The notes beneath the pieces are model-generated. The model did no database searches. It was not told the origin of the DNA and saw nothing but the letters and a program-made list of their open reading frames with translations. DNA of 64,000 nt from NCBI GenBank assembly GCA_000004695.1, contig CM000150.2:384001-448000 (forward strand). The letters are read 5' to 3'. Source of the DNA: Dictyostelium discoideum. Lineage: Eukaryota. Of the stretch, positions 6,446 to 60,929 are shown piece after piece (position 1 is the first letter of the stretch; each line of letters starts with the position of its first letter). The position numbers and the translations under genes are program-made.

Positions 6446-11584
<5,139 letters not shown>

Positions 11585-11714: not shown

Positions 11715-13021
11715 TTAGATTATTGAAAATTCTTTTTTTTCATCACCATCATCAAAAGGTAAAAAGAAAGAATCAATAAAAGATTGATTTATATCATATA
11801 TTGATGAAGGTGAATAAATTGGTTTATGAGTTTTATCAATTAAAGTTTTGAAAACACCTTGAGTTAAATCTTGTCTATTGCCCAATCTAGTACCAACCCT
11901 GACTTCCATTTGAAAGATTTGATCAATATTCATTTGTAAAGCACGTTTAATAATTTCAAATGAGACACAAACTGATGTCGGACATAATTGATCTAATAGT
12001 ATAGATAATGTTTTTGAAGCCCATTCAATTTCATCTTTATTGTTTTTATTATCCACATTTTCAATCTCCACTTTCAATTGATTCAATATCTCTTTCACTG
12101 ATTTAAATTCTTTATTATTAAAACATCTATTAATTATTGATTGATAAAGAACTAAATGAGAAGACTCTTTATCAGGATACAATGTCTTTCTATACTTATT
12201 TAAAATGAATTCAATTTGTCTATAACCTTCAATATCATCATCATTACATAACTCTTCCAATGTTCTTTCAAATAATTCATTTGGTATATAATGAGTTGCC
12301 AATTTCACATTTATCAAATCTTTTGAATTTATCTTTACCCCAACCATTGCTAAATATAATCCAATTGAACCAAGTCTAGATAAAAAATAACTTGTACCCA
12401 CATCTGGAAAATATCCAATTCTATTCTATATTTTCAATAAATTTATATTAGAGAAACATAAGATCCTATGTAGTAGTAGTAGTATTAGTAGTATTGGTAG
12501 TGTACACTTACTTCAGGCATTGCCCATTGAACATTATCACCTATAATTCTATGACTAGAATGTATGCTTAGACCTACACCACCACCCATGACAATACCAT
12601 TAACGAATGATAGAATTGGTTTATTAAATGTATGAATTAAATGATCCATTGCATATTCTACTCTAATGAATTCATTAACACCAGCTGATGAGCGTGACAA
12701 TTGTGAAAACTCTTTAATATCACCACCTGAACAAAATGATTTCTCTGTACTACTATTTATTATTACAAATTTACAATTATCATCATTATTAAATTCTTTA
12801 AGTTTTTCTGATAAAAATTTTAACATTTCCATAGTTAATGAATTCAATGCTTCACTTCTATTTAATATTATTCTTTTACATCCATTTTTATATTCTATAA
12901 TTTTAATTTTATTATTTTCCATTTCTTTTAAAACATTATTATTATTATTAAATTGTTTTTGTTGTGGTTGTGGTTGTAGTTGTGAAAATAATAAATGGTT
13001 TTTAATAATTTCTATTCTATT

Positions 13022-13024
<3 letters not shown>
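11715..13024 (-). CDS. 3-hydroxyisobutyryl-CoA hydrolase (crotonase/enoyl-CoA hydratase superfamily), paralog A. Two exons: complement(join(11715..12425, 12512..13024)). About 407 aa.
   Basis: KSFCSGGDIKEF and GIVMGGGVGLSIH are crotonase oxyanion-hole motifs, followed by WAMPE. The donor is GAA|GTAAGT at 12511. An 86-bp intron has its acceptor ...AAAATATAG| at 12426, and exon 2 starts NRIGYFPDVGTSYFLSRLG (the HIBCH catalytic Asp region). The ORF-track tail 'VSVHYQYY*' is intron read-through. Confidence 0.8.
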
Positions 13025-13063
<39 letters not shown>

Positions 13064-13720
13064 TTAAAAATATTAAAAAAAATGAAAAAATACAAATAAA
13101 GCATTAAAATGAATTTTATTATAACATTTTTTTTTTTTTTTTTACACAAAAATTTTTTTTTCTAATGAAAAAACTTTTTTTTTTAAAAATATCTTTTTTA
13201 TTTTTATGACGATAATGATCGGAAATTAAAAAAAAAAAAAAAATTTTGAAAATACATATGTATTTTTTTTATTTTATTTTTTTTTTATTTTCGATTATTC
13301 AAATAAGGGGAATCGCATAGAAAATAAAAAAAAAAAAAAAAAGGCGACAAACCACTTTAATGCCGAAATTTTTACATCCAACCACCCTTATATTCAAATT
13401 AATAATATTAACTTTTTTAAAAAAAATATTATGACTCAATCTGTGAATTATTATATATATATTTTGGAGTGTTTCAGATATTATCTTTGGACATTCCAAA
13501 CATGTTATCTTACTTGGCTTAGCTCAAAATAGAACCATAGGTACAGGTAGAATTTTATCAGTTAATATTTATGAATCATGTGAGATGACAACGCTATCTA
13601 ATGGCTGTAAGATACGAGTTGTACTAGATTTTAAATTAATCATGTTTATTAAATATCTACAATTTCCATAAAACAAATAATTAATTTTAATTTTTTTTAT
13701 CTTTAAAATTTCTCCTTTTT

Positions 13721-29650: not shown

Positions 29651-30280
29651 ATGAAAATTATTTATTCATTAATTTCAATAATTTTAATAATTTCAATTTG
29701 TAATGCAATTAAAATGAAAAATTCAAATAATGATGCAAAATCATTATGGATTAATTTCCTTCCATATGATGAAAATTGTGAAAAACCAGTTCCAGGTATG
29801 GGATTTGGTTCATTAGGAGCTGGACCTTGTTCACTCAATTATACTGCTGAAACATCAGGAAGTCAATGGACATTTTTCGTTGATGATGATACAACCTATG
29901 CAAATTTAACAACATTCCAAGATGAATATTGTAGTGTTCCAGGTCCAACCAAAGTATTTAAAGTTGGTCAATGTGCACAATATGATAATTTACAAAATAC
30001 CAATTATATGGTAACAGTAACAAAAGAACCACAAATTCCAAATGGAGTTTATTTAATTTATAATAAGGATGAATTTTGTCTAGCTTATCAAAATTATTGG
30101 TTTTATACCCCAGGAACTGAAATTAATAACTTTGATGGTAATCAAACTATGACTTTTTCTTGCAAACATGGTGTTGCTTATACAACTCAATGTGTTACTG
30201 AATCAAATTGTTTAACATTAAAGAGCTCAACAACTTGTGGTTTTTTAACTGGATATTATGCTGATATTTATTGCACTTAA
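29651..30280 (+). CDS. Secreted Cys-rich protein, 209 aa, a paralog of 25670..26341.
   Basis: Signal peptide MKIIYSLISIILIISICNA, about 14 Cys and N-glycosylation sequons. Confidence 0.5.
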   Translation: MKIIYSLISIILIISICNAIKMKNSNNDAKSLWINFLPYDENCEKPVPGMGFGSLGAGPCSLNYTAETSGSQWTFFVDDDTTYANLTTFQDEYCSVPGPTKVFKVGQCAQYDNLQNTNYMVTVTKEPQIPNGVYLIYNKDEFCLAYQNYWFYTPGTEINNFDGNQTMTFSCKHGVAYTTQCVTESNCLTLKSSTTCGFLTGYYADIYCT

Positions 30281-30979: not shown

Positions 30980-32538
30980 ATGACTAAACCAGTTGCTTCA
31001 TATGAATTAGATGAAAAAAGATTCCTTACATTATTAGGTAAATTAATTGGTGAAACTGAAAATCTCCAAAATAGACCACCAGCTTTAATTCCAATTGAAG
31101 ATAATGCAGGTCGTCATGTCATTGAAGTAATTATCAAAAAAAAAAAAATAAATAAATCAAAAAAAATTAAAAAAAAATCAAAAAAATTAAAAATAAATTA
31201 ACAAATATAATTTTTTTATTTTTTTTTTTTATTTTTATTTTTAATATTTCAAAAAAAAAAAAAAAAGGCTTTAACTCCATACTTAAAAGCAAATGGTGGT
31301 GTTTTAGAATTAGAACAAGTTCACTGTGATCCAGTAAACTATCCAAAAAGAGGTAACATTATTATTGAATACCCAGGTACCTCCAAAGGAACTAGTTCAC
31401 CAAAAACAATTTCATTTGTTGGTTCACATTTAGATGTAGTTCCAGCTGATAAAACTGCTTGGGATAGAAGTAAGTAAATATAATTTATAATTTTATAATT
31501 TATTATTCATTTATTAATTTTTTTTTTTTTTTTTTTAATTTAGATCCATTCCAATTAATTATTGAAGGTGATAAATTATATGGTAGAGGTACAACTGATT
31601 GTTTAGGACATGTTGCATTATTAACAGATTTATTTATTCAACTTGCAACTGAAAAACCAGCACTTAAACATTCAATTTTTGCAGTATTTATTGTAAGTGA
31701 AGAGAATGATGAAATTCCAGGTATTGGTGTCGATGCATTAGATCATAGTGGAAAGATGAATCCATGTAAGAATGGACCAGTTTATTGGGTAGATTCAGCA
31801 GATTCACAACCAACCATTGGTACTGGTGGTGCACAAACTTGGAATTTAACAGCTCATGGTAAGAATATGCATAGTGCTATGCCATATAGAACTGTAAACT
31901 CTGTAGAGTTGGTCAACGAAGCATTGGCTGAGATTCAACGTCGTTTCTACATTGACTTCAAACCACATCCAAAAGAAGCCGAATATAAATTCGATTGTTC
32001 ATCAACAATGAAACCAACCTTATGGAAACCAATCGCCGGTAGTTACAATACCATTCCAGGTGAGTCAACCATTTGTGGTGATATTCGTTTAACTCCATTC
32101 TATGATATGAAAGAAATGCGTGCAAAAGTTGAAGGTTATATCAAAGATATCAATGCCAATATCACTGAACTTCGTAATAGAGGTCCATACAGTAAATATG
32201 ATGTACCAGCCTCTGAAGGTGTTGAACCAGTCAAAGGTTCAGTCTCTATTGAATGGTTAGGTGAAGCATCAGCTGGTGTCGCTTGTAAACTCGACTCTGA
32301 TGGTTACAAAGCACTTGGTAAAGCTACTTCTGAAATTTTAGGTTCATTAACTCCAGTTGCAACTTGTGGTACTCTTCCTTTGGTTCGTGATCTCCAAGAT
32401 AGTGGTTTCGATATTCAAATTACTGGTTTTGGTAAAGAAGAAACTTATCATGCTGATAATGAATATGCTTTATTATCTGATTTTAAAAATGCTATTAAAA
32501 TTTTATCTCGTACAATTGATTTATTAGAAAAAAATTAA
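30980..32538 (+). CDS. argE: Acetylornithine deacetylase (M20 metallopeptidase family). Three exons: join(30980..31126, 31269..31470, 31544..32538), 447 aa.
   Basis: MTKPVASYELDEKRFLTLLGKLIGETENLQNRPPALIPIEDNAGRHVIE|GTAATT. Exon 2 encodes ALTPYLKANGGVLELEQVHCDPVNYPKRGNIIIEYPGT...TAWDR-, with donor A|GTAAGT. Exon 3 encodes DPFQLIIEGDKLYGRGTTDCLGHVALL...ETYHADNEYALL (M20 metal-binding residues). Total length and sequence are consistent with Dictyostelium ArgE. Confidence 0.88.
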
Positions 32539-32595: not shown

Positions 32596-32709
32596 TTAAT
32601 AAAATATAAAAAAAATTAAAAATAATAATAAAATTATTAAATTTTTTGAAATTAAATTAAAATTATTATTTGAATTATTAAAATTTTCATTTAAATTTTC
32701 ATTTAATAA

Positions 32710-32744
<35 letters not shown>

Positions 32745-33778
32745 AATTTGAATTTAATGATTTTTTATTAATTGAACATAAAAAATTATTATATTGACAA
32801 GTTATTTGATCACCAAAACATGAAACATATTCAGTTTGATTTTTACATTTAACTTTACCAAATGAATCAATTAAACATTTTGTATTATCATCATTTAAAC
32901 ATTTAATTGTTGTTGAATTATTTGATTTACAAATAATATCTTCATCTCTTGATTTAATTTTAATACCTTCATCATAATAACTATCTTGATTTGAATTATT
33001 ATTATTTAATTTAATTGATTCACAAATAAATGATGAATAAGTTTTTAAATTTGGTAAACAAGCATATTTTGATTTTAAATAAAAATTAAAAGTGCTCATT
33101 GGATATTCTTCATATTTTTCTAAACTATGTTCAACACCATGTTCACATGAAATTATAATTTTTGATTTTCTATCTTGACTTAAAAAAGTTAAAATAATTT
33201 CATTTTGTTTTAATTCAAATGGTAATAATTGATTAATTAATCCAGTTTTAAATATCTCACCAGTACTAATTGTTTGACATGATTGAGTTTCATTATCATT
33301 TAATATTGAATTACAAATTTCATTTTTTGAACAAATTGAAAAATAATACTATTGTTTTTTTTTTTAATTTAACTATTAATAAAAATAATTTGTTTTTTGA
33401 TAATATTAAAAATTTTAAAATAGTTACATTAAATAAAAATGATCTATTTTCAGTATAATTTAAAGAAACACCTTTTAATGAAGATAAATCATAATAATAA
33501 TTTGAATCATTAAATATACATTTATTATACATTTCAATTATTAATTTATTACTATTTAAATCATTTGTTAATGATAATGATGATGGTGATACTGATGGTG
33601 ATACTGATGGTGATACTGATGATGATGATAATGAAGATGAAGGTTGAATATTTGATGTTTGAAAAAATGGATCACCTATATAATCATAAAAATAATAGCT
33701 TAAGGGTTCATTTGGTTCTTCTCCAGAAATTAAAATTAAAATTAAAAAAAAAAATAATAAAATTGTTTTTAAAAACAT
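32596..33778 (-). CDS. Secreted MRH-domain (mannose-6-phosphate-receptor-homology) lectin-like protein with a probable GPI-type hydrophobic C-terminal tail. Two exons: complement(join(32596..33348, 33428..33778)). About 367 aa.
   Basis: Exon 1 carries the signal peptide [19 protein letters not shown], a (VSPS)n repeat and ...NYTENRSFLFN|GTAACT. A 79-bp intron ends ...CAATAG|. Exon 2 encodes YYFSICSKNEICNSILN...SQDRKSKIIISCEHG...EEYPMSTFNFYLKSKYAC (the hallmark MRH ending E..PxC.Y.F....YAC). A Cys-rich module, poly-N and a C-terminal LIILLLFLIFFIFY follow. Confidence 0.65.
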
Positions 33779-36107
33779 TTTTATAATTTTTTTATTTTTT
33801 TTTATTTTTAATAATATAAAAAAAAAAATATAAATAAATGAATATTTAAATAATTATTTTTAAACTTTTTTTTTTTTTTTTTTTTATTTTTAAAATTAAA
33901 ATTTATATTATTAATAATAATAATAATTAATATAAATTTTATTTTTAATCATTTTTACAATTGTTCAATTAATTTATTTATTTTTTTTACTTTTGGTTAT
34001 TTTTAAAATTAATAATAAAAAAAATAATTATTTTATTGTGTTGCTAATGTAAAAATCAAAAAAATCAAAATTAACAAAATTCACTAACCCATTTCATTTT
34101 TTTGTCCACCCACAATAAATATAAAAACAAAAAATGAAAATTAATTTTGAAAATTATTGTTATTCCCCAATTAGAAATTTTTAAAAAAATATTAATTTTG
34201 AAAATTTAGATTTATTTAATTATCTTTTATTTCATGAATGTATCAGTGTGTGTGTGGTTGTTTACACATAAAAATAAAATTTGAATTTGATTATTACAAT
34301 TTTAATTTTTAAAATAAATTCCAAAATTAATACTATTTTTTTTACTATTCATAACTACAATTTTTTATTTATATATAAAACATATTTAAATTTTATTATA
34401 AAAATGCCAATTTTTAACTTTTTTTTATATTCTTTGTTTTTATTTTTTTTTTTTTTACCATTCATATAAAACAGATAATAGATAAGTCATATATGGAGAT
34501 TTGATCAATAGATTTTTTTTAAAAGTAATTTGAATAATTAGAACTATTTTTAACCTTAACCTAAAACTTTTTTTAATACTGGCAAACTTTTTTATTTTTT
34601 ATTTTTTTTTTTCTGGCCCGAGGAATAAGAAAGATAAAATGTAAAAATGAAAAAAAAAATTGAATAAATATTAAAGTTTTAAGGTGTTCCCAAACAACTT
34701 GAGTCTTACCTGTGGTTAATCTGTTTTTTTCCCTACAACTTTTTTAAATTGGGGTCATTTTGCCTCCAAAAATATTATTATACTTTTGTTTCTCCTCTTC
34801 TTTTTTTATTTTTTTATAAATATAATTTTTTTTTTTTTTTAAAGTTTAGTGATTTTTAAGTTTAACCCATTTATTTTATATATATAAACTAACAACATAA
34901 CAAACAACAAAAATTAAACTTTTATTAATGAAAAATGGATGAGGGCGAAAATTAGTTTTCAGATTGAGAAGAAGAAATTTAAGACATTAGTTTTCTCAAG
35001 GGATAAAGAACAAATATTCAAACAAGAGGTAGTAAATAACTATTTTAATTTTGATTTAAAAAACAACACCCAATCATTGATTTCACAAATTCAATTGATG
35101 AGGATATATTTTCTTATGATTATGATCATGTATCTATCCAATTTTTACCTTCAAAATCAAATGAAATTTTTGATTTAAGAGTTTGGAAAATTGTATTAAA
35201 GTTAGTGCTAATAACACCTTTTTTTTTTTTTTTGAAATTTTTTGATTAATCAAGCTTTTGAATTGGTAACATTCAAATCACATTTATGAAAAATATGTAA
35301 TTTAATTGAGGAATTCAAGGAGAATCTAATGAAATTTCATTATCAAAATATAAAAATGGTAAAATTAATTTTTTCCAATTTTAACTTTTTAAAAAAAACT
35401 ATATAAAAATATCAAATAATAATAATTATAAATAAATAAACAAATAGATTCAATAAATAAATAATTACAAAGAGGTCTCTTCAATGGTACACCACCCTTT
35501 CTAACAGTAGTCAAGTTGATCAGAGAAAGAACAACCATAATCATTAGTAGTAAATAATAAATTGAAATCATTATTATTAGTTAATAATAAAACAATTAAA
35601 AATAATATATAATAATAATTTATAAAATCACTTCAAATAAAATCACGACCTAACAGGCTGACTACAATGTTTTTTTTTTTAAAAAAAAAAATTTACCAAA
35701 CCGATTTCAAAGGTTTTTTAAAAAAAATGGACCAAATGGGCAATTATAAGGTTTTTTTTTTTTTTTTAAAAAAAAAAATATATATACCATATTGATCTCA
35801 TAACTACATGGGCTTATGAAAAGGTTTTTTTTTAAAAAAAAAAATAAAATATAAAATATAAAAAATAAAAAAAATATTAAATAAATAAATTAAACCTCAA
35901 TAATTTATTAAAATATTATAATATTGAGAAGATAATTAACCATAAAACAATTATTTTTTAAAAAAAAAAAAAAAAAAAAAATACAATTATATACCAAGGA
36001 AAAAAAAAAAAAAAAAAAAAGTAAAATAAAATAATATAAAATAAAAATTAGTCTATTTTCTTTCCAAACAAATATTTCTATTGTGTTTATTATTAATTTT
36101 TTTATTT

Positions 36108-37374
36108 TTATAAAATTAAAAATAATAATATTAAAGTTAAATAAATAAAAATATTGAATGAAAAAATTAAAGTTGAAGAAGAATTAATTTGTCTTTGTTG
36201 TTGTTGTTGTTGATTTTCTTGAATAATTAATTCATCACTACCAAAAGTATTTGAATTAATTACTAAATCATTAACATTTAAACCTGAATATAATTTAGTA
36301 TTAATTTTACAAGTGAAATATGAAGTTTTACAAACAATATGATTACCACTACAAGAGATAAAAGAATTTGGTGTTGTGCATGTGATAACTCCATTTGGTT
36401 GATCAGTTCCACATGTTGAACCTTCTTCTGTTATACAATTAGTTTTTCCATTACCAGTACAAACAATTAATTCTGTACTATTTATAAATAAACCATTTTC
36501 ATTTGATTCACAATAAATTGGTGAATTATTTGGTGTTGAAGTTGGTGTTGAAGTTGGTGTTGAAGTTGGTGTTGAAGTTGGTGATTGAGTTGGTGATTGA
36601 GTTGGTGATTGAGTTGGTGATTGAGTTGGTGATTGAGTTGGTGATGGAGTTGGTGATTGAGTTGATGTTTGAGTTGGTGATGGAGTTGGTTTTGGTAATG
36701 GACATGCATATATTGTTTTAATATAAATATCATAAACACACATTGGACTTTCAGTTTGTTTTTCAATTGTAAATTCATATTCTGGACTACATTTATAATA
36801 ATAATTTGAACTTCTATTATTACCATTTGGACAAATTACATTTGGACCACTTTGTGTACCTGAAGCATTATAACTGATTTTAAGGCTATATTCAGATAAT
36901 GGATTGAGTGAAAATTGACCTTTTCCAAAATTACCAATTTCAAAAAAACCTCTTTCAACATGTTGACATGATTGAATATTATCTCCAATACTTGAACAAC
37001 CATTATTTACTGAACAAACTGCAAATGAATACTTTTTTTTTTTTTTTTTTTTTAATTTTTTTTTTTTTAATTTTTTTTTTTTTAATTTTTTTTTTTTTTT
37101 AATTATTAAAAAAATAAATAAATAAATAAAAAAAAGTATAAAAATAAAATTGGTTAAAAAATTTTTTAATATAAAAAAAAAAAAAAAAATAAAAATTAAA
37201 AAATATAATAATATTTACATCAGTATAATGATTTACTCGATACAAGAATGTAGAATTCTTTATTAAAGACATATCAATTATATGAGTTGAATTTTGAAAA
37301 ATACATGTTTCTAATGATGATTTAACTACACTAAGAAATGTAGATAAAATAAATAATAAAATATATTTATTCAT
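36108..37374 (-). CDS. Secreted MRH-domain lectin-like protein, a paralog of 32596..33778. Two exons: complement(join(36108..37031, 37219..37374)). About 359 aa, with an (SPTQ)n mucin-like linker, a Cys-rich module and a hydrophobic C-terminal tail.
   Basis: Exon 1 carries the signal peptide MNKYILLFILSTFLSVVKS and ...NHYTD|GTAAAT. A ~187-bp A/T-rich intron ends ...AAAAAG|. Exon 2 encodes YSFAVCSVNNGCSSIGD...ASGTQSGPNVICPNGNNRSSNYYYKCSPEYEFTIEKQTESPMCVYDIYIKTIYAC, then PTPSPTQ(SPTQ)n(STPT)n, the Cys-rich module and the tail LIFSFNIFIYLTLILLFLIL. The 114-aa and 72-aa ORFs at 36482..36826 are repeat artefacts. Confidence 0.65.
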
Positions 37375-42082: not shown

Positions 42083-42113
<31 letters not shown>

Positions 42114-43479
42114 AACGGACATGCATTTTTGGATGATGCATAGATTGTTTGATTGCAAATGGAGTTATTAACAGTGGTTAAGACGGTGAATTCAGTATTG
42201 GAGCATCTAATATATACCTTTATCTCTGGTTTGGTTGTACAAATGGTAGGGGTAGATGATGAATTAAATGAAATTAAAATATTGTTTGATGTGTTACTAC
42301 TTGCAATAAATGGTACTTTGGATACTGTAGGTTTATCAAGGAATGGAATGGTTGTTTTTCCAAGTCCTAAAATAAGACAACCATAATACTTTCCACTTAA
42401 TCTTGAGAATTTATTACATACATCAACAGTACCACCGAAATTGAAAAGGAATCTATTGGGTTCTAGAGCTGACGAATATGGATTTGATGATGATGTTCTT
42501 TAATAATTTTTTTTTTTTATCAGTAAAATAAAATCTATAAAAGAAAATAATAATAATAATAATAATAAAATACATACAATTTCAATGATCTTAAATCATA
42601 TTGATTGCCACCAAATAAGTATTTGTTTTCAATTGGACAGGCAAATTTAGTGGAGATTTGTTGGATACCTTGTACCATTGACTGAAACACGTTATTGAAT
42701 TGGACCCTCACCAGCTGTAGCAGTACATAAAGTTGATGTTTCACAAAGACTAAAATAAAAAATGTTGCTACCATTTGTTGTAGTATATTGTGATGGTCCT
42801 AAAACACTATTGAGATTAATTAATTAATTTAATTTTTTAAAAATATAAAATAAATAGGTTAGATAATAAAATAATGATAAATTAAAATAAAAATAAAATA
42901 AAAGAATACATACTTTGAAGTTGGTGATAAATCGAAAAATCTATTTTTAGAATCTTGGAAAACACATCTATTTTTAGAATCTTTAGTATGTGGACTATCC
43001 ACTCTAGCATTTTGAATGAAATCATAGTGGTTTGTATCAGAGTATGTATAAACATAATTGTAAAGACTATAAAATGGAATGGTTTTTGGATTTCCAACTT
43101 CTACAGTTAATAATGATTGAATAGAATTAACTTGGTCTTCCAATACACCAATCGAAGCACGAGAGGATATATCGGTTGTCTTTGATTGAGCAGAGGTTGA
43201 ATTTGATTCGAGTGATGATGTTTTTGGTGCAATGAATTGGAAATTACTTTCAAAGAAACACAAATTATTTGAATTTAATGATTGATAAATCATTGGTTTT
43301 TTATCATTATTGGCTGCATTTAATAACTCTATGAAATATGTTTTGAAATCATAAACATTTTCTTTATTACTTAACACATCAATTAAAAATGATACACTTG
43401 ATTCTTTAAAACCTTCTAATTCATATAAATCATAAAAGAATGATGTTATTGAAGAGCTGTAATATGATTGAACATTCAA
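42061..43479 (-). CDS. Uncharacterized multi-exon gene. Exon 1 is complement(42913..43479) and encodes 189 aa (MNVQSYYSSSITSFFYDLYELEGF...FDLSPTSK) before a GTATGT donor. The downstream exons are only partly resolved. Candidate pieces include SMVQGIQQISTKFACPIENKYLFGGNQYDLRSLKL and a last exon GLGKTTIPFLDKPTVSKVPF...TEFTVLTTVNNSICNQTIYASSKNACPFYLFIYLFIYLFIILKKNNK*.
   Basis: The 206-aa ORF 42859..43479 runs into the donor AAG|GTATGT at 42912. ORF 42535..42774 ends at another GTATGT donor. The plus-strand ORF 42153..42386 is antisense to an open minus-strand frame that ends in a hydrophobic tail. I did not determine how the pieces join. Confidence 0.35.
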
Positions 43480-43758
43480 GAAAAAAAATTATTTTAAATA
43501 ATTTTAAATAAATAAAAAAAAAACAATCAATATTTTAATGTTTACTATGAAGCATTAAAAAAAACGCCATCAATATTTTAGTGCATATCTTTTCAAAATT
43601 TTTAAAAAAAAACGAGCAAAATCTTGGTGTAAATGAATTCATTTTTTTTATTTTTTTTATTTTTCTTTGAAATATCTTTTGATGCTAAAAATACCAAACC
43701 AATCATGATTTATTCTAAAAAATTTTGAACATTTTATTTTATTTAATTTTATTTTTTT

Positions 43759-43821
<63 letters not shown>

Positions 43822-43852
43822 GCAAGAAACGATTAATTAAATAATTAAAAGA

Positions 43853-45187
43853 ATGAAATATTTGGTTACTATATTTTTATTATTTATTTTGTTCTCAATA
43901 ATTAAATGTCAACCTCCAAGATGTTTATACAGTGATATTTATGCAAAATCACCACACCCAAACTTAAAACCCTCTGTAAATTATGTTAATTGGTGGATTT
44001 ATGAACATTTTAATGATGCTGGTTATGGTGGTTCATCTTTTTATACAGATAGTAATTTAAAGGACCTAAATGAAAAAATTTTTGAATTGAGCGATTATAA
44101 TATGAGAGATCAAAACCAGGTATCTCCAATTACTCAAACATTCAGTCAAGTGAATGATCTTCTATTTTCAAGTATTTCTTACAATAATGCTTTTGATGAC
44201 GATTACTCAAAAGGAAGTGCACATGAAAAAGGATTTTTTATTTGGAACGAACAAGGTGGTATTCATGTTATTCATAGTATTCCAAAAACACCTCAAAAAA
44301 TGAATGATTTCTTTTTACATACCTCCAAAGATAATTATTTACAACATTCAATTTGTATTACATTGTCACAAGCTGAATTAGATATTATTCCTAAATATTT
44401 GATTTATACCAACCCTGCAATTGCAACAATAAATTCTAAAAAGATTACTGGTTCAATCATAAGTTCTTTAACAGAAGAAAGTATAACAGGTGTTAATAAT
44501 GTTAACAAAAACGATACATTTGATACAGTAACAGATATTGAAATTGGAGATACGGAACAGTTTACAGAAATCGATACAATTATTCAGGATAATTTTATTG
44601 TAGGTCCAACTCTCCCAAGAATTATTAAAATTCTACAATGGGCTAAATTGGTATGTATAATTATTTTTATTATTGTTTATTTTATAGTTGTAAATTATAC
44701 TCACTCAAATTATACCACTTTTTGTATTTCCCAGGCTAATCATGTCGCTGGAAATATTGATTTTTCATCAGATCCAAATTTTCCAAGCTATCATTATTAT
44801 AGAGCAAAGCAACATTCATTTGGTGAATACTTTGTTCAAACTCCAATACCAGAAAAGAAAAATATTATTGCTGGATCCTCTCAGTATAACTTGGCAAGAA
44901 TGAATAACATTGAAATTTTATGGCAATACATCGGTAAATATTACGGTAGTATTTCAAAATGGATGTCTCAAACAATGACTACAAATAAAGGATTTGCTAA
45001 TAATGTAGTTACTGGTACAACTTTCTCATTAACATTTAGGCTCAATTATCCATTCCTAAATAACCATCAACAAAGAAGTGCCTCAAAAGATCATTCAAAG
45101 TTCATGTATGGTACCAGTAACAATGGTCAACAAAAAATCTTTTGTATAGGTGGTTTAAATTGGCAAAGAGCTCAAGGTAGGATAAAA

Positions 45188-45266
<79 letters not shown>

Positions 45267-46458
45267 TATATATTATATATTATATATTATATTATTTATT
45301 ATTTATTATTACTAATTAATCGTTAATTTGAATATTTTTATTGATACAATACACTTCATAATTAGAATCAAGAGGAGGGGCAGCTTTTTGCATGAATGGT
45401 ATTGGTTATTTAGTTGATTATATGGAAAGACATGTATCATGGACAAGAAAAGGAATAGCCCAAAATCAAGTAAAATCTGGTGTCCCACAATCAACAGTAG
45501 GAACTGAAATAGACTTTTCTTGGATAAAGGATCAATTGAACATCCAAAATCTAGATATTCCCATGGGATTCGAAATTTTAATACCAACAACACAAAATCC
45601 ACTTCCAAAAAGAGTTATTGAACCAGCACAATCAAATTATAAAACCAAAAATGCTCCACTCCTTGTTGAACCTGTGCAGACACCATTAGGTGCATTAGTA
45701 GGTTATAAAACTGAGGCAATTTCAATTGATGTTTTCCCAAGTGTAAAAGATAAAGTACATATATGTCTACAATCATCCCAATGTCCGTATGAATTATCAG
45801 CTAAATCTAATATCATTTCAAATATTAATCTTATTGTTACTCCTTATCAATTAAACTCAGAATCAGAACCTGTTATGACAATTTCCTCCAATGCAAACCC
45901 TGCTATTTCTGTTTCACAAGTATTGAAGAATAATTATTTCTCTTCTATGGCCACTGAAAAAATAATTCAACTAAATGGTAATAATTTTGGAGTTTATTTA
46001 CAAAAGACTCAACAAACTCTAGGTGATTTTAAATTTAAATTTCCACAATCAAGTATCAATACCCCTTGTACTATTTCACCAATAGGTAGTAATATTATTT
46101 CAATTATGTTTCATGAAACTTGTGTTGATCAACTTATATTTTGCTTATTTAGTCATTTCCACATGTATTCAATTAATAATATACCAGTGTTTATGGTAGA
46201 TGACCAAGCTTCATTTTATAATGATGTTACCCAAATTCTTGTAAGATAATATTCAGTTACAAATATAAAATGCACAAAACTTTTTGATCATTACATTCTA
46301 ATACCATTATTAATTTTTTTAAATAGAATGAATTCTTTCCAAACATTCCAGATATCAGTAGATGTGTTGAACAACCACCTTCGCCTGGAACTGCAATGAC
46401 TGATAACGATGAAATTGATGAATTGATGGGATCTCAGGCCATGACTGATGAAATTTAA
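43853..46458 (+). CDS. DNase II-family (acid deoxyribonuclease) homolog with a ~290-aa C-terminal extension of unknown function. Exons: join(43853..44650, 44735..45176, 45366..46240). A possible fourth exon is 46327..46458; if it is not used, exon 3 ends at the TAA 46247..46249.
   Basis: Signal peptide MKYLVTIFLLFILFSIIKC. DNase II motifs are GFFIWNEQGGIHVIHSIPKTP, DHSKF and CIGGLNWQRAQ. The intron GTATGT...CCCAG (84 bp) is read through in frame by the ORF track. The donor CAAG|GTAGGA at 45177, the (TTA)n intron and the acceptor ATAATTAG| at 45365 join in phase to ...E-SRGGAAFC, a match to the DNase II 'RSGGFIC' region. The frame then runs on as MNGIGYLVDY... for 285 aa (ORF 45392..46249). 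The stop TAA overlaps a GTAAGA donor. An 86-bp intron (acceptor TTAAATAG|) would add the in-frame NEFFPNIPDISRCVEQPPSPGTAMTDNDEIDELMGSQAMTDEI*. Confidence 0.7.
45189..45260. repeat. (TTA)n microsatellite (about 24 units) inside the last large intron of the DNase II-like gene.
   Basis: Perfect triplet run, followed by (TATAT) units. Confidence 0.9.
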
Positions 46459-46689
46459 AAAATTAATAATCAAAAAAAAACACTGTTTTTAAAAAAAAAA
46501 AAAATAATAAAAAAAAAATCTAAAAAAATTGAATCACGATATGGTATCTGTATTGTTTATGGCTTGATTTAAAATTTGTGGTAAATCTTTGACCTTAGGA
46601 TTCTATTTTAATTTCCAAAAAAAAAAAAGTAATATCAAATTGAATTTTTAAATGACAAATGATAGTATTTTATTTTTTAATTGTAAATT

Positions 46690-47772
46690 ATTCTTTTTCA
46701 ATACAAACTTTAACTTTGTATTGGATTTGATGAAGGATGATCCAGATTTATCATTATAACAAATAAGGGTATTATTATATGCATAGTTAAATTCTACTTC
46801 TCCTGGATAACAGGCAAGTTTATTTGATGCAGAGTTGAATTCTGTGATAATTGTTTGATTGGTAATTACAATTGGCTCTACTTCGGATGGTGGAACTTCA
46901 AAGCATGCATGAATAATCTGAAGCTTTTACCAATGAATTCTTTGAGCATGATGAATATTTATTGTAACTATAGCATTCTACATTATTAATGAATGAATGT
47001 TCAGGTTCACCGCCATCACTAACACATTCAACAATGTTTGATTGGGTTTCGCTATTTGAACAGAAAATAGTAGAATTATGATTGTATGAATATTCATTGA
47101 ATCCATCTTTACAATAGATTGGACTATTTTGACCATAGAATATCATTGATTTTTCATTGGCATTGTATTCACATTTTAATGAACTTGAAACTTTTGAAAC
47201 TGTTGAAATAGAGAATTTATAGTCAATGCAGATTTTGAACGAACACCACAATTAATTTCAGTTACAAAGTTGGTTGTATTACATTTAATACCATTATTAT
47301 TAGCATCAATTTGACAAGTGATTGATTTGTTGAAATTGAAACTAAAATTATTATTATCAATACATGTTACAGTTTCATTGAATTGATTATCAATTGTAAA
47401 GATACGATCATTATGATTAATTGAGAAAAATACTGCAGAGTAAGGTGTTGAAGCAATTGATAAAAGATTGGATGTTGGTACTGGTGCTGTTGATGATGAT
47501 AATAGGTTTCCACCCATTGATGATTTTGTTACCACCAATGCTAAAGCTATAGTTGATACACGTTTAATACCATTCTTTGCAACCTGAGTTACAACTCTTC
47601 TTGTTACCTCTGCGAACCCAAATTGTAATGATTTCTCTAATGCTCCTGAAAATGATGCTGTAGATGCTAATATTGAACCAGATTGAGCTGCTGTTGCAGA
47701 TGTTGCAGATGTTGCAAATGCTATTTGTGTAAGTGGTAAAGCAGTTGATGCTAATAATGCTGCTGCAACCAA
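46690..47772 (-). pseudogene. Frameshifted gene for a secreted Ala/Ser/Thr-rich, Cys-rich protein. Three successive reading frames carry the coding sense. It is a probable pseudogene, or else sequence errors.
   Basis: ORF 47176..47772 starts with the signal peptide MVAAALLASTALPLTQIAFA, a Ser/Thr/Ala-rich run and Cys modules. The sense then continues in a second frame (46898..47251, ...KCEYNANEKSMIFYGQNSPIYC...DYSCML*) and in a third frame (CFEVPPSEVEPIVITNQ...ACYPGEVEFNYAYNNTLICYND...). The second shift sits in a CATGCATGC tandem: TCATGCATGCTTTGAAG. Confidence 0.5.
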
Positions 47773-59513: not shown

Positions 59514-59865
59514 ATGTCAACAACATCAATGATATTAACTAAAAAAAATATAATAATATTATCAATTATAATTATAACAATAATTGCATATCAATTTTAT
59601 ATAACATCACCACAATCATTCCCATCATCAAATACAATCACAAATACAATAAATACATCTGGTAAAGGATTAGATTATACAGAATTATTAAATTTACAAA
59701 AAGATTTAAAAGCGCAACAAACTGAAATTAGAAAACAATTAGAACAATTAAAATATTCAATTAATGATATAAATCAAAATCAAAATGAAAATCAAAATCA
59801 AATTAACAATGAATATAATAATAATAAATTAAATGATGAACAAGAAAATAATAATAATAATAATT

Positions 59866-59896
<31 letters not shown>

Positions 59897-60929
59897 ATTA
59901 ATAAATTATAAAGAAAGAATTAAAAAGAAATCAAAAGAACAACCAAATACATGTATACCAGTTGAAGGTAAATTATTATGTTTACCAAATTTTATAGTTA
60001 TTGGTACAATGAAGAGTGGTACAACATTTTTAGATTATTATTTACAAAAGCATCCACAAATCGCTCATCATAGTAAGAAAGAGATTTGGTATTTCAATAG
60101 TTATTATGCAAATGGTATTGAATGGTATGCAAAACATTTTGAACAATATACAAGTTTAGAGAATCAGAAATTAATTGGTGAAGCAACACCATTCTATATT
60201 AATAATCCAAATACTGCACCACGTTTATTTACAACCCTAAAGAATGCCAAATTGATTCTACTATTGAGAGACCCAGTGGAACGTTCCTTATCACAATACC
60301 ATTTCTCAATTCAATGGTTAAAAAGAAACAAGTCACCACCATTGGAATACTCTTTTGAGCATTTAATCCATGAAGAAGCTGACGTAATTGAAACTTGTAT
60401 ACGTGGTCATGAGAGATATAAAGAAGCATTTAAACAAAGAAAAGAAATTGAAAAGAATGGCGGTGGTGGTTTACTAAATGATAATACTAGTGGTGAAGAA
60501 TTCAATTTGGTTGATCCTTTTTACACTTTACATTCTGAAAAGAATTGGACATTCTATAAAGATTGTATTAGATGTGATAAATGTTTCCAAATTGGTTCAA
60601 TTCTTCATACAAGTGGTCATCCAACTTTTGGTATGTTAGCAAAATCACTCTATTTTGAGCAATTGGATTATTGGTTAAACTTTTTCCCATTGGAACAAAT
60701 TCATATCATTAGATATGAAGATATCTCTTCACAACCTGAATCAGTTTTAAGTGAATTAGAAGATTTCTTAGATATTAATCATATTGATTATGGTGAATTT
60801 AAACCAAGAAATGTTGTACAACATGATCCAATGAATCAAGAAATTAAATCATATTTAATTAATTATTTTAAACAAAGTAATGAAAAACTTTATAATTTAT
60901 TAAATAGAGATTTTAAATGGCAAAATTAA
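59514..60929 (+). CDS. Type II membrane carbohydrate sulfotransferase (sulfotransferase domain), 471 aa.
   Basis: The N-terminal anchor is MSTTSMILTKKNIIILSIIIITIIAY. The 5'-PSB motif FIVIGTMKSGTTFL and the 3'-PB motif LLLRDPVERSLSQYHF identify the sulfotransferase domain. A poly-N/Q spacer is present. Confidence 0.7.

What the first reader, a model, noticed from the sequence alone, without database searches (positions are those of the whole stretch)
32596..37374. Two paralogous secreted MRH-domain (M6P-receptor-homology) lectin-like GPI-type proteins, 2.3 kb apart
Both minus-strand genes (32596..33778 and 36108..37374) encode the same set of modules: a signal peptide, an MRH domain, a Ser/Pro/Thr mucin-like repeat ((VSPS)n in one, (SPTQ)n(STPT)n in the other), a small Cys-rich module, and a hydrophobic C-terminal tail typical of GPI attachment. 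The order of the MRH domain and the repeat differs between them. Each MRH domain ends with the hallmark E..P.C.Y.F....YAC and has an internal Q..R...C signature (GTQSGP...NNRSS...C; SQDRKSKIIISC). MRH domains bind high-mannose glycans in glucosidase II-beta, OS-9 and M6P receptors. A cell-surface MRH lectin pair has no assigned function I can name, and it could act in cell-cell or cell-prey glycan recognition. The ORF track splits both genes, and the signal-peptide exons are only found by splicing.
Basis: partly seen in the sequence, partly recalled or inferred. Interest (0 to 1): 0.6.

Follow-up and report, generated by a model that had tools for sequence, protein, structure and literature searches.

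The report
Two surface-anchored MRH lectin genes
Two neighbouring Dictyostelium discoideum genes encode secreted, probably GPI-anchored proteins whose head is a true mannose-6-phosphate-receptor-type (MRH) sugar-binding domain; databases already name their relatives "MRH domain-containing protein", but nobody has studied what these fast-evolving lectins bind.

Summary
The window is D. discoideum AX4 chromosome 1. Two minus-strand genes, each with one intron (187 and 79 nt), encode paralogues of 359 aa (A) and 367 aa (B). Each has a signal peptide, one MRH domain, a short S/P/T repeat, a Cys-rich module and a hydrophobic C-terminus.

A keeps all eight CI-MPR-type cysteines and the Gln/Arg/Glu/Tyr sugar-binding tetrad (Q75, R125, E146, Y152). 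B has lost one disulfide and has Phe for the Tyr.

There is no cytoplasmic tail and no ER-retention signal. These are therefore not sorting receptors or ER quality-control lectins, and surface display is most likely. GPI anchoring fits the sequence but is untested.

The MRH domains evolve fast (dN/dS about 1.5-1.7 against D. cf. discoideum), while A's Cys-rich module is conserved (0.13). The family is restricted to dictyostelids and duplicates in tandem. Orthologues are already auto-named "MRH domain-containing protein", and I found no functional study.

The parts
36108..37374 (-). Gene A: two exons (37374..37219 and 37031..36108, stop included) and a 187-nt intron (37218..37032). Product 359 aa.
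   Evidence: The intron position is conserved in D. cf. discoideum. Orthologues are P0001, P0002 and P0147.
37318..37374 (-). A: signal peptide, aa 1-19 (MNKYILLFILSTFLSVVKS)
   Evidence: Hydrophobic N-terminus (maximum Kyte-Doolittle 2.83 over 10 residues), with V at -3 and S at -1 before SLETC. This is a heuristic; no predictor was run.
36699..37311 (-). A: MRH domain, aa 22-163, interrupted by the intron. It has eight Cys and the tetrad Q75, R125, E146, Y152.
36519..36698 (-). A: Pro/Thr/Ser/Gln mucin-like repeat, aa 164-223, (SPTQ)n(STPT)n
   Evidence: TRF finds a 12-nt period with 13.8 copies at 36530..36694. Translation.
36300..36518 (-). A: Cys-rich module, aa 224-296, eight Cys; no match to any known family
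   Evidence: Alignment A3. No PDB or Pfam match. 97% identical to the D. cf. discoideum copy, dN/dS 0.13.
36111..36170 (-). A: C-terminal hydrophobic tail, aa 340-359 (LIFSFNIFIYLTLILLFLIL), preceded by NSSS. Candidate GPI-attachment signal.
   Evidence: No residues follow the hydrophobic stretch. The feature is conserved in P0001, P0003, P0152 and the cf. discoideum orthologue.
32596..33778 (-). Gene B: two exons (33778..33428 and 33348..32596, stop included) and a 79-nt intron (33427..33349). Product 367 aa.
   Evidence: The intron position is conserved in P0098's gene. Orthologues are P0098, P0099 and P0100.
33722..33778 (-). B: signal peptide, aa 1-19 ([19 protein letters not shown])
   Evidence: heuristic.
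33572..33640 (-). B: Ser-rich (VSPS)n repeat, aa 47-69, N-terminal to the MRH domain
   Evidence: TRF finds a 12-nt period with 3.8 copies at 33581..33626. This region is the most divergent part against D. cf. discoideum.
33055..33526 (-). B: MRH domain, aa 85-215, interrupted by the intron. It has six Cys (the third and fifth of the canonical six, C3 and C5, are missing) and the tetrad Q142, R177, E198, F204.
32767..33030 (-). B: Cys-rich module, aa 224-311, homologous to A's, with an Asn-rich insertion
32599..32640 (-). B: C-terminal hydrophobic tail, aa 354-367 (LIILLLFLIFFIFY), after an Asn-rich linker. Candidate GPI signal; 14 residues is short for a membrane-spanning helix.

Best explanation
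A and B are paralogous secretory-pathway glycoproteins. Each displays one P-type (MRH, CI-MPR-repeat-type) lectin domain at the cell surface. The domain is held away from the membrane by an O-glycosylatable S/P/T stretch and a family-specific Cys-rich module. The protein is tethered by a C-terminal GPI anchor, or failing that by a tail-less membrane anchor.

Shown here:
- the gene models and the paralogy;
- the MRH fold;
- in A, the full set of four disulfides and the Gln/Arg/Glu/Tyr residues that bind mannose in the mannose-6-phosphate receptors;
- in B, three of those four residues and three disulfides;
- the absence of any cytoplasmic tail or ER-retention signal;
- fast protein evolution confined to the MRH heads.

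Inferred:
- A binds a mannose-containing N-glycan through that pocket. Candidates are high-mannose glycans or Dictyostelium's own methyl-phosphorylated or sulphated mannose.
- B does so weakly or with altered specificity.
- The ligands sit on other cells, on prey or on secreted glycoproteins. They are not cargo to be sorted inside the cell, because a tail-less protein cannot recruit sorting adaptors.
- The rapid change of the lectin heads and the tandem duplication reflect changing ligands.
For: Gene structure and paralogy.

MRH membership:
- The family profile matches CI-MPR at 3.9e-45. The best single repeats, by their order along the chain, are repeats 9, 5 and 3 (36.7, 26.7 and 25.8 bits). 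Those are three of the four carbohydrate-binding repeats listed in PMC7481795.
- 507 library hits, led by CI-MPR-like proteins, which carry Pfam CIMR, ATG27, Man-6-P_recep and PRKCSH_1.
- AlphaFold pLDDT 95.8 and pTM 0.89.
- The Foldseek top 50 are all MRH proteins.

Binding residues:
- Among 457 aligned MRH domains, the columns of A's Q75, R125, E146 and Y152 hold Q in 302, R in 356, E in 274 and Y in 402. A reads QREY and B reads QREF.
- The family's invariant Arg aligns with the Arg of 'SGFQRM' (repeat 3) and 'HTPRAT' (repeat 5) in CI-MPR. These are R391 and R688, whose mutation is used to abolish binding (PMC7481795).

Topology: hydrophobic N-termini, and 13-20-residue hydrophobic C-termini with nothing after them in all complete family members. 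There is no HDEL or KDEL.

Evolution:
- dN/dS is 1.72 for A's MRH domain and 1.54 for B's, against 0.13 for A's Cys-rich module, 0.38 for the neighbouring epimerase and 0.09 for serS.
- The nonsynonymous-to-synonymous ratio of the MRH domains exceeds the epimerase's with p about 0.003.
- D. dimigraforme has at least three tandem A-type copies in 13 kb.
Against: - No binding, localisation or expression data exist. I found no paper on these genes.
- A and B alone do not reach any Pfam MRH-type model.
- The binding tetrad is not inviolate in the family. AX4 B and P0002 have Phe for Tyr, and P0001 has Val for Gln.
- dN/dS near or above 1 could mean relaxed constraint rather than adaptation. It is not significantly above 1 (p = 0.12-0.42).
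- GPI anchoring rests on a by-eye rule only.
- The AlphaFold alignment was assembled from MRH-profile hits, so its confidence is not independent of the sequence evidence.
- Most CI-MPR repeats bind no sugar although they have this fold.
Confidence: 0.6

Rival explanations
1. The MRH fold is kept but is no longer, or never was, a lectin. Like most CI-MPR repeats (for example repeat 11, which binds IGF2), the domain would bind a protein partner or act as a structural spacer on a surface glycoprotein.
Against: A and most family members keep all four tetrad residues. R and E are invariant, and the Gln is kept in 7 of the 8 aligned Dictyostelium sequences. The best-scoring CI-MPR repeats by sequence are the sugar-binding ones, 9, 5 and 3. 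Only 207 of 457 superfamily domains keep the whole tetrad, so its retention here is not a default.
Confidence: 0.22
2. They are intracellular MRH proteins. They would be either a Dictyostelium lysosomal-enzyme sorting receptor or an ER/Golgi quality-control lectin, with the C-terminal hydrophobic stretch acting as a membrane-spanning anchor.
For: All characterised MRH proteins work inside the secretory or endolysosomal pathway (PMC9388126). Dictyostelium lysosomal enzymes carry methylphosphomannose and mannose-6-sulphate (references listed in PMC2115693). A's tail is 20 residues long, enough to span a membrane.
Against: Nothing follows the hydrophobic stretch, so there is no cytoplasmic tail and no adaptor-binding motif. 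There is no HDEL or KDEL. B's tail is only 14 residues. Mucin-like spacers and rapid evolution are typical of surface proteins. Dictyostelids have separate proteins of CD-MPR/Atg27 type, with a transmembrane segment and a conserved tail; P0246 and P0249 are examples.
Confidence: 0.12
3. The genes are not functional as modelled. They would be decaying copies or mis-spliced models, like the MRH gene fragment 5 kb upstream.
For: High dN/dS in the MRH domains. A neighbouring MRH gene fragment in the same window is clearly decayed. My exact A and B sequences are not in the protein collection.
Against: The reading frames are intact across four species, with conserved intron positions. All structural cysteines are conserved. 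A's Cys-rich module is under strong constraint, dN/dS 0.13. The missing exact matches look like withheld D. discoideum entries, not a modelling error, because orthologous models in other species join the exons in the same way.
Confidence: 0.04

Closest known systems
[quoted passage not shown]
   Same: About 145-residue flattened beta-barrel. A has the same eight cysteines and the Gln/Arg/Glu/Tyr tetrad, with repeat 9's E-x3-C-x-Y spacing. These are the best sequence and structure matches. B lacks the same Cys that repeat 5 lacks: repeat 5 reads 'EEDNSTYNF' where B reads 'EEYPMSTFNF'.
   Different: One domain instead of 15. No transmembrane segment with a cytoplasmic sorting tail. A mucin-like stretch, a novel Cys-rich module and a GPI-type tail are added. 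Sequence identity is only 14-21%. Recognition of phosphate was not assessed.
Cation-dependent mannose-6-phosphate receptor (CD-MPR) and the dictyostelid CD-MPR/Atg27-like proteins (P0246, P0249)
   Different: CD-MPR-type proteins have a transmembrane helix and a conserved cytoplasmic tail. In P0246 this reads '...YKVRGLQGKELFPNVTFW...' and hits Pfam Man-6-P_recep and ATG27. A and B end at the hydrophobic stretch.
ER and Golgi MRH lectins: glucosidase II beta, OS-9/Yos9, XTP3-B (erlectin), GNPTG
   Different: Those domains are the shorter type. GNPTG has three disulfides, and the solved OS-9 and glucosidase II-beta MRH chains are 94-111 residues. The proteins are soluble luminal ones. From my own knowledge, OS-9 reads its glycan through a double-Trp motif; A's and B's domains contain no Trp at all. 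Sequence and structure scores are clearly lower than for the MPRs.
DDB_G0290815/DDB_G0290813-type large Dictyostelium MRH-IPT/TIG proteins (cluster of P0173)
   Same: MRH domains of the same subfamily: P0173's first domain is the best-scoring hit outside the A/B-type proteins (71.6 bits). The C-terminus carries a Cys-rich module of the same kind, 'SPIYCKDG...'. UniProt names DDB_G0290815 an MRH domain-containing protein.
   Different: About 2450 aa, with three MRH domains, TIG repeats and internal hydrophobic segments, not a GPI-type end. Only decayed fragments of a copy lie in this window.
Dictyostelium GPI-anchored mucin-type surface glycoproteins such as PsA (from my own knowledge, not tested here)
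   Same: The overall layout: signal peptide, globular head, Pro/Thr-rich O-glycosylated spacer and a C-terminal hydrophobic GPI signal.
   Different: The head domain is unrelated. No sequence comparison was made here.

Membership tests
MRH / P-type lectin domain superfamily (PROSITE MRH; Pfam CIMR, Man-6-P_recep, PRKCSH_1, ATG27) | Significant match of the single protein to a curated MRH-type model | tested here: not met
   Pfam finds no MRH-type family in A or B even at E <= 10. phmmer of A's domain against PDB gives only ERLEC1 at E = 1.4.
MRH / P-type lectin domain superfamily (PROSITE MRH; Pfam CIMR, Man-6-P_recep, PRKCSH_1, ATG27) | Significant profile-level sequence homology to bona fide MRH domains | tested here: met
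   The eight-sequence family profile matches CI-MPR at 3.9e-45 (single repeat 4.7e-8), ERLEC1 at 0.0019 and glucosidase II-beta at 0.0025. It finds 507 library hits, the top at 5e-91. Family members and relatives hit CIMR (2.4e-9), ATG27, PRKCSH_1 and Man-6-P_recep. UniProt names orthologues 'MRH domain-containing protein'.
MRH / P-type lectin domain superfamily (PROSITE MRH; Pfam CIMR, Man-6-P_recep, PRKCSH_1, ATG27) | Flattened beta-barrel fold (nine strands in GNPTG; PMC9388126) | tested here: met
MRH / P-type lectin domain superfamily (PROSITE MRH; Pfam CIMR, Man-6-P_recep, PRKCSH_1, ATG27) | Conserved disulfide framework (eight Cys in CI-MPR-type repeats; PMC8717582) | tested here: met
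   A has Cys in all eight conserved columns. B has six and lacks C3 and C5, the two I infer to pair.
MRH / P-type lectin domain superfamily (PROSITE MRH; Pfam CIMR, Man-6-P_recep, PRKCSH_1, ATG27) | Gln/Arg/Glu/Tyr carbohydrate-binding tetrad | tested here: met
   A has Q75, R125, E146 and Y152, a complete tetrad. B has Q142, R177, E198 and F204, three of four. The Arg aligns with CI-MPR R391 and R688.
MRH / P-type lectin domain superfamily (PROSITE MRH; Pfam CIMR, Man-6-P_recep, PRKCSH_1, ATG27) | Demonstrated binding of mannose-type glycans | not testable with these tools
   This needs a glycan array or SPR with the recombinant domain.
Mannose-6-phosphate receptors as lysosomal-enzyme sorting receptors (CD-MPR, CI-MPR) | Type I transmembrane protein with a cytoplasmic tail that carries adaptor-binding sorting motifs | tested here: not met
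   A and B, and every complete orthologue, end within or at the hydrophobic stretch. No cytoplasmic residues follow.
Mannose-6-phosphate receptors as lysosomal-enzyme sorting receptors (CD-MPR, CI-MPR) | Residues that contact the phosphate group | not tested
   The loop before the Arg is poorly aligned and is deleted in B. I could not retrieve the papers that define these residues.
ER quality-control MRH lectins (glucosidase II beta, OS-9/Yos9, XTP3-B) | Soluble ER-luminal protein with a retention signal or ER partner, and a short MRH domain | tested here: not met
   There is no HDEL or KDEL, and the C-terminus is hydrophobic. The domain is the roughly 145-residue, eight-Cys type. Sequence and structure scores are lower than for the MPRs.
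GPI-anchored surface proteins | N-terminal signal peptide plus a C-terminal signal: small residues at the cleavage site, a short spacer and a terminal hydrophobic stretch with no cytoplasmic residues | tested here: inconclusive
   The sequence pattern fits. A reads ...RQINSSST + LIFSFNIFIYLTLILLFLIL; B reads ...NNSNNNFNLISKN + LIILLLFLIFFIFY. It is conserved across orthologues. No GPI predictor (big-PI, PredGPI, NetGPI) or SignalP was available, and there is no biochemical evidence.

The most novel reading that the evidence does not exclude
A and B are the first GPI-anchored, cell-surface members of the mannose-6-phosphate-receptor lectin family. They would read Dictyostelium's own unusual N-glycan marks (methylphosphomannose or mannose-6-sulphate on secreted lysosomal enzymes or on neighbouring cells) or mannose-rich prey surfaces. 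Their heads would be under diversifying selection, which would make them a glycan-based recognition system (for prey, for pathogens or for self against non-self) rather than sorting machinery.
Probability: 0.12. Interest if true: 0.7.

Novelty: new variant of a known kind. Interest (0 to 1): 0.4.

Why it matters
All characterised MRH lectins work inside the secretory or endolysosomal pathway. They act in lysosomal-enzyme sorting, ER glycoprotein quality control or GlcNAc-phosphotransferase targeting.

A tail-less, mucin-stalked, probably GPI-anchored single MRH domain would place this lectin fold on the outside of a cell. Dictyostelium decorates its secreted hydrolases with methylphosphomannose and mannose-6-sulphate. 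As far as I know, no endogenous receptor for those marks has been established.

Three features are what one sees in surface recognition molecules: the heads change fast while the stalk module stays conserved, the genes duplicate in tandem in a sister species, and the family is restricted to dictyostelids.

The practical value is modest but real. It is a well-defined, testable pair of candidates in a genetically tractable organism. Against this, the domain call already exists as automatic annotation for relatives, and everything beyond the fold is inference.

Tried and rejected
- Pfam on A and B alone gave no MRH-type hit. I judged this a sensitivity problem after the profile and structure results.
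- phmmer of A's domain against PDB gave only a chance-level ERLEC1 match.
- The first AlphaFold run, with the eight-sequence alignment, failed (pLDDT 42). It worked only with a 36-sequence alignment that included distant MRH domains.
- The search for homologous proteins with the nine-sequence alignment returned nothing, not even the family's own members.
- The afdb50 fold library was unavailable, so I could not recover the UniProt entries and names of the AX4 proteins themselves.
- Literature searches found no paper on these genes. I tried guessed DDB_G and UniProt identifiers, and Dictyostelium combined with MRH, P-type lectin and GPI. Three MRH reviews or papers were not held.
- The Cys-rich module matched nothing in PDB or Pfam.
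- I first read the weak tblastn hits at 42-47 kb as two extra paralogues, which would make a four-gene cluster. I rejected that. They are fragments of a partial segmental copy of the chromosome-5 DDB_G0290813/15 locus.
- I considered whether a conserved gene lies between A and B on the other strand. The interval is not conserved with D. cf. discoideum, and that genome's 142-aa gene model has no counterpart here.
- No tRNA genes were found in the window.
- dN/dS above 1 is not statistically established, so I do not claim positive selection.

Full report
**Where we are.** The window has 21.7% G+C. Five of its ORFs are identical to D. discoideum AX4 chromosome 1 proteins: serS, DDB_G0267610, DDB_G0267620, the sulfotransferase kil1 (DDB_G0267630) and DDB_G0267632. 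The finding lies between an M20-peptidase gene that ends at 32538 and an AT-rich intergenic region.

**Observation.**
Gene A on the minus strand has exon 1 at 37374..37219, a phase-0 GT..AG intron of 187 nt at 37218..37032, and exon 2 at 37031..36108, giving 359 aa.
- Gene B has exon 1 at 33778..33428, a 79-nt intron at 33427..33349, and exon 2 at 33348..32596, giving 367 aa.
- In D. cf. discoideum (locus L001) both orthologues have an intron at exactly the same codon but of different length (246 and 144 nt), and the flanking reading frames are conserved. This is good comparative support for the splicing, though it is not transcript evidence.
- A and B are paralogues: BLASTP gives 26% identity and E = 2e-15 across the globular domain and the Cys-rich module.
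- The S/P/T repeats are 12-nt tandem arrays.

Pfam gives no MRH, PRKCSH or CIMR match even at E <= 10, and phmmer against PDB gives only a chance-level ERLEC1 match.
- Homologues are few and all from Dictyostelium. They come from D. dimigraforme, D. firmibasis and D. cf. discoideum, at 36-66% identity. The D. discoideum entries themselves appear to be withheld from the collection.
- A profile of the eight domains (A1) settles the matter. Against PDB sequences it matches CI-MPR at 3.9e-45 for the whole chain and 4.7e-8 for the best single repeat. It also matches ERLEC1 (0.0019) and glucosidase II-beta (0.0025).
- Against 1.84 billion representative proteins the same profile finds 507 hits. They are led by proteins of 2000-2600 aa with up to 17 matched repeats, at E down to 5e-91.
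- Sampled relatives carry Pfam CIMR, ATG27, Man-6-P_recep and PRKCSH_1.
- An AlphaFold model of A's domain built on eight sequences was useless (pLDDT 42). With 36 aligned domains it reached pLDDT 95.8 and pTM 0.89.
- The top 50 Foldseek hits against PDB are all MRH proteins.
- One caveat applies: the deep alignment was built from MRH-profile hits, so the model is not independent of the sequence evidence.
- The domain is therefore an MRH domain of the long CI-MPR/CD-MPR type.

**Binding-site and disulfide anatomy.** I aligned 457 full-length domains from the library hits to the family profile.
- A's Q75, R125, E146 and Y152 (full-length numbering) fall in columns that hold Q in 302, R in 356, E in 274 and Y in 402 of the 457 domains. 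The whole tetrad is present in 207 of them.
- A reads QREY. B reads QREF (Q142, R177, E198, F204).
- In the HMMER alignments the family's invariant Arg pairs with the Arg of CI-MPR 'SGFQRM' (repeat 3) and 'HTPRAT' (repeat 5). Allowing for a constant offset of two residues in the construct numbering, these are R391 and R688. PMC7481795 mutates these residues to abolish binding, and calls R391 essential for high-affinity binding.
- The same alignments pair the family's 'SCQ' Gln with the 'CQ' Gln of repeats 3 and 9.
- The three best-scoring CI-MPR repeats are 9, 5 and 3, assigned by their order along the chain. They are three of the four carbohydrate-binding repeats.
- A has Cys in all eight conserved columns. 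CI-MPR-type MRH domains have eight conserved cysteines (PMC8717582).
- B lacks C3 and C5. CI-MPR repeat 5 shows the same Cys-to-Ser change at C5.
- B's orthologues in other species keep the Tyr, and two of them keep C5. In the A lineage, P0002 has Phe for Tyr and P0001 has Val for Gln. The pocket is therefore usually but not always kept.

**Topology.**
- Both proteins begin with a hydrophobic signal-peptide-like segment.
- Both end, as every complete orthologue does, in a 13-20-residue hydrophobic stretch at the very C-terminus. Small or polar residues precede it: NSSS in the A group, and N/S-rich sequence in the B group.
- There is no cytoplasmic tail and no HDEL or KDEL.
- This is the classical look of a GPI-attachment signal. 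B's 14-residue stretch is short for a transmembrane helix.
- No predictor could be run, so I treat GPI anchoring as likely but untested.
- Either way, a protein with no cytoplasmic tail cannot engage sorting adaptors as the MPRs do. Dictyostelids also have separate CD-MPR/Atg27-like proteins with a conserved tail (P0246, P0249).

**The other modules.**
- The Cys-rich module (A 224-296, B 224-311) aligns across the family and matches nothing in PDB or Pfam.
- A related module sits at the C-terminus of the large MRH-TIG proteins of the DDB_G0290815/13 type.

**Evolution.** I compared AX4 with D. cf. discoideum using Nei-Gojobori dN/dS.

| Region | dN/dS |
|---|---|
| A, MRH domain | 1.72 |
| B, MRH domain | 1.54 |
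| A, Cys-rich module (97% identical) | 0.13 |
| B, Cys-rich module | 0.59 |
| neighbouring epimerase | 0.38 |
| serS | 0.09 |

- The excess of nonsynonymous change in the MRH domains over the neighbouring gene is significant (p about 0.003). The values are not significantly above 1 (p = 0.12-0.42). I therefore claim fast evolution of the heads, not proven positive selection.
- The A/B neighbourhood is syntenic in D. cf. discoideum and D. firmibasis. In D. firmibasis the A orthologue is inverted, with a mitochondrial-carrier gene in between.
- D. dimigraforme has at least three tandem A-type copies within 13 kb, a B orthologue on the same contig, and a second adjacent pair elsewhere (P0003, P0152).
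- Relatives with one or two MRH domains occur in D. purpureum and Polysphondylium violaceum. UniProt names them 'MRH domain-containing protein'.

**Mechanism.**
- The most likely reading is a pair of surface-tethered P-type lectins.
- A is probably competent to bind a mannose-containing N-glycan through the canonical pocket. B probably binds weakly or with altered specificity.
- The ligand is unknown. Dictyostelium's own methylphosphomannose and mannose-6-sulphate glycans (references listed in PMC2115693), plain high-mannose glycans and prey mannans are all possible.
- Three rivals remain: a non-lectin MRH module, an intracellular sorting or quality-control role, and non-functional genes. They are weighed in their own section of this report.

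**Comparison and novelty.**
- In fold and pocket the heads resemble MPR sugar-binding domains and are members of the MRH superfamily.
- They are not members of the functional classes 'mannose-6-phosphate receptor', since the tail test fails, or 'ER quality-control lectin', since they have no retention signal and a different domain subtype.
- I found no description of this architecture: one MRH head, a mucin-like stretch, a novel Cys-rich module and a GPI-type end.
- The domain call itself is already made automatically for orthologues. The genes sit in a fully annotated model genome, and everything beyond the fold is inference.
- I therefore rate it as a new variant of a known kind, of moderate interest.

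Noticed in passing
window 42114..47772 (fragments at 42095..43476 and 46691..47772, minus strand): This is a partial segmental copy (88-93% DNA identity) of the locus that holds two tandem large MRH-IPT/TIG genes; in AX4 that locus is DDB_G0290813/DDB_G0290815 on chromosome 5. The copy contains only the 3' end of the upstream gene and residues 264-729 of the downstream gene. The downstream fragment lacks the first 263 codons. It has a roughly 200-bp internal deletion, a stop after 'GEGPIQ', and nothing beyond residue 729. These are pseudogene fragments, not extra paralogues of A and B.
   Followed up: yes
window 43853..45319 (+) and 45392..46249 (+): A DNase II-family ORF (Pfam 5.7e-27, residues 43-211) with a signal-peptide-like start and a long poly-Tyr end, followed by a 285-aa ORF with no Pfam hit. 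Together they correspond to the two DNase II gene models inside the duplicated segment. I did not examine whether this copy is intact.
   Followed up: partly
window 59514..60929 (+): The membrane-associated sulfotransferase kil1 (DDB_G0267630) lies about 22 kb from the lectin pair. Dictyostelium N-glycans carry mannose-6-sulphate, one conceivable ligand class for an MRH lectin. The proximity is probably coincidental.
   Followed up: no
L004 779..2294, 10001..11290, 12336..13615 (D. dimigraforme): At least three tandem A-type genes in the same orientation within 13 kb, about 66% identical to each other. A further A-like model of 170 aa (P0147) and the B orthologue lie on the same contig. The family grows and shrinks by tandem duplication.
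   Followed up: partly
window 36300..36518 and 32767..33030; also 46898..47251: A Cys-rich module of about 75-90 residues and eight Cys, with no match in Pfam or PDB. It is shared by A, B, their orthologues and the C-terminus of the large MRH-TIG proteins. In A it is far more conserved than the lectin head (dN/dS 0.13 against 1.72).
   Followed up: partly
window 34103..35827: The interval between B and A has no detectable similarity to the 5-kb interval between the orthologues in D. cf. discoideum. That genome's 142-aa gene model in the interval has no counterpart here. Conservation extends only about 300 bp upstream of each start codon.
   Followed up: partly
L002 1026..2003 (-) against 10001..11207 (+) (D. 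firmibasis): In D. firmibasis the A orthologue (P0002) is on the opposite strand to the B orthologue, with a mitochondrial-carrier gene between them. P0002's model (292 aa) stops before the hydrophobic tail and may be truncated.
   Followed up: no
window 29651..30280 (+): A single-exon ORF of 209 aa belonging to the counting-factor-associated protein family (Pfam CfaA_B_C, 2.6e-31). It is a secreted-protein family involved in group-size regulation and lies 2.3 kb from gene B.
   Followed up: no
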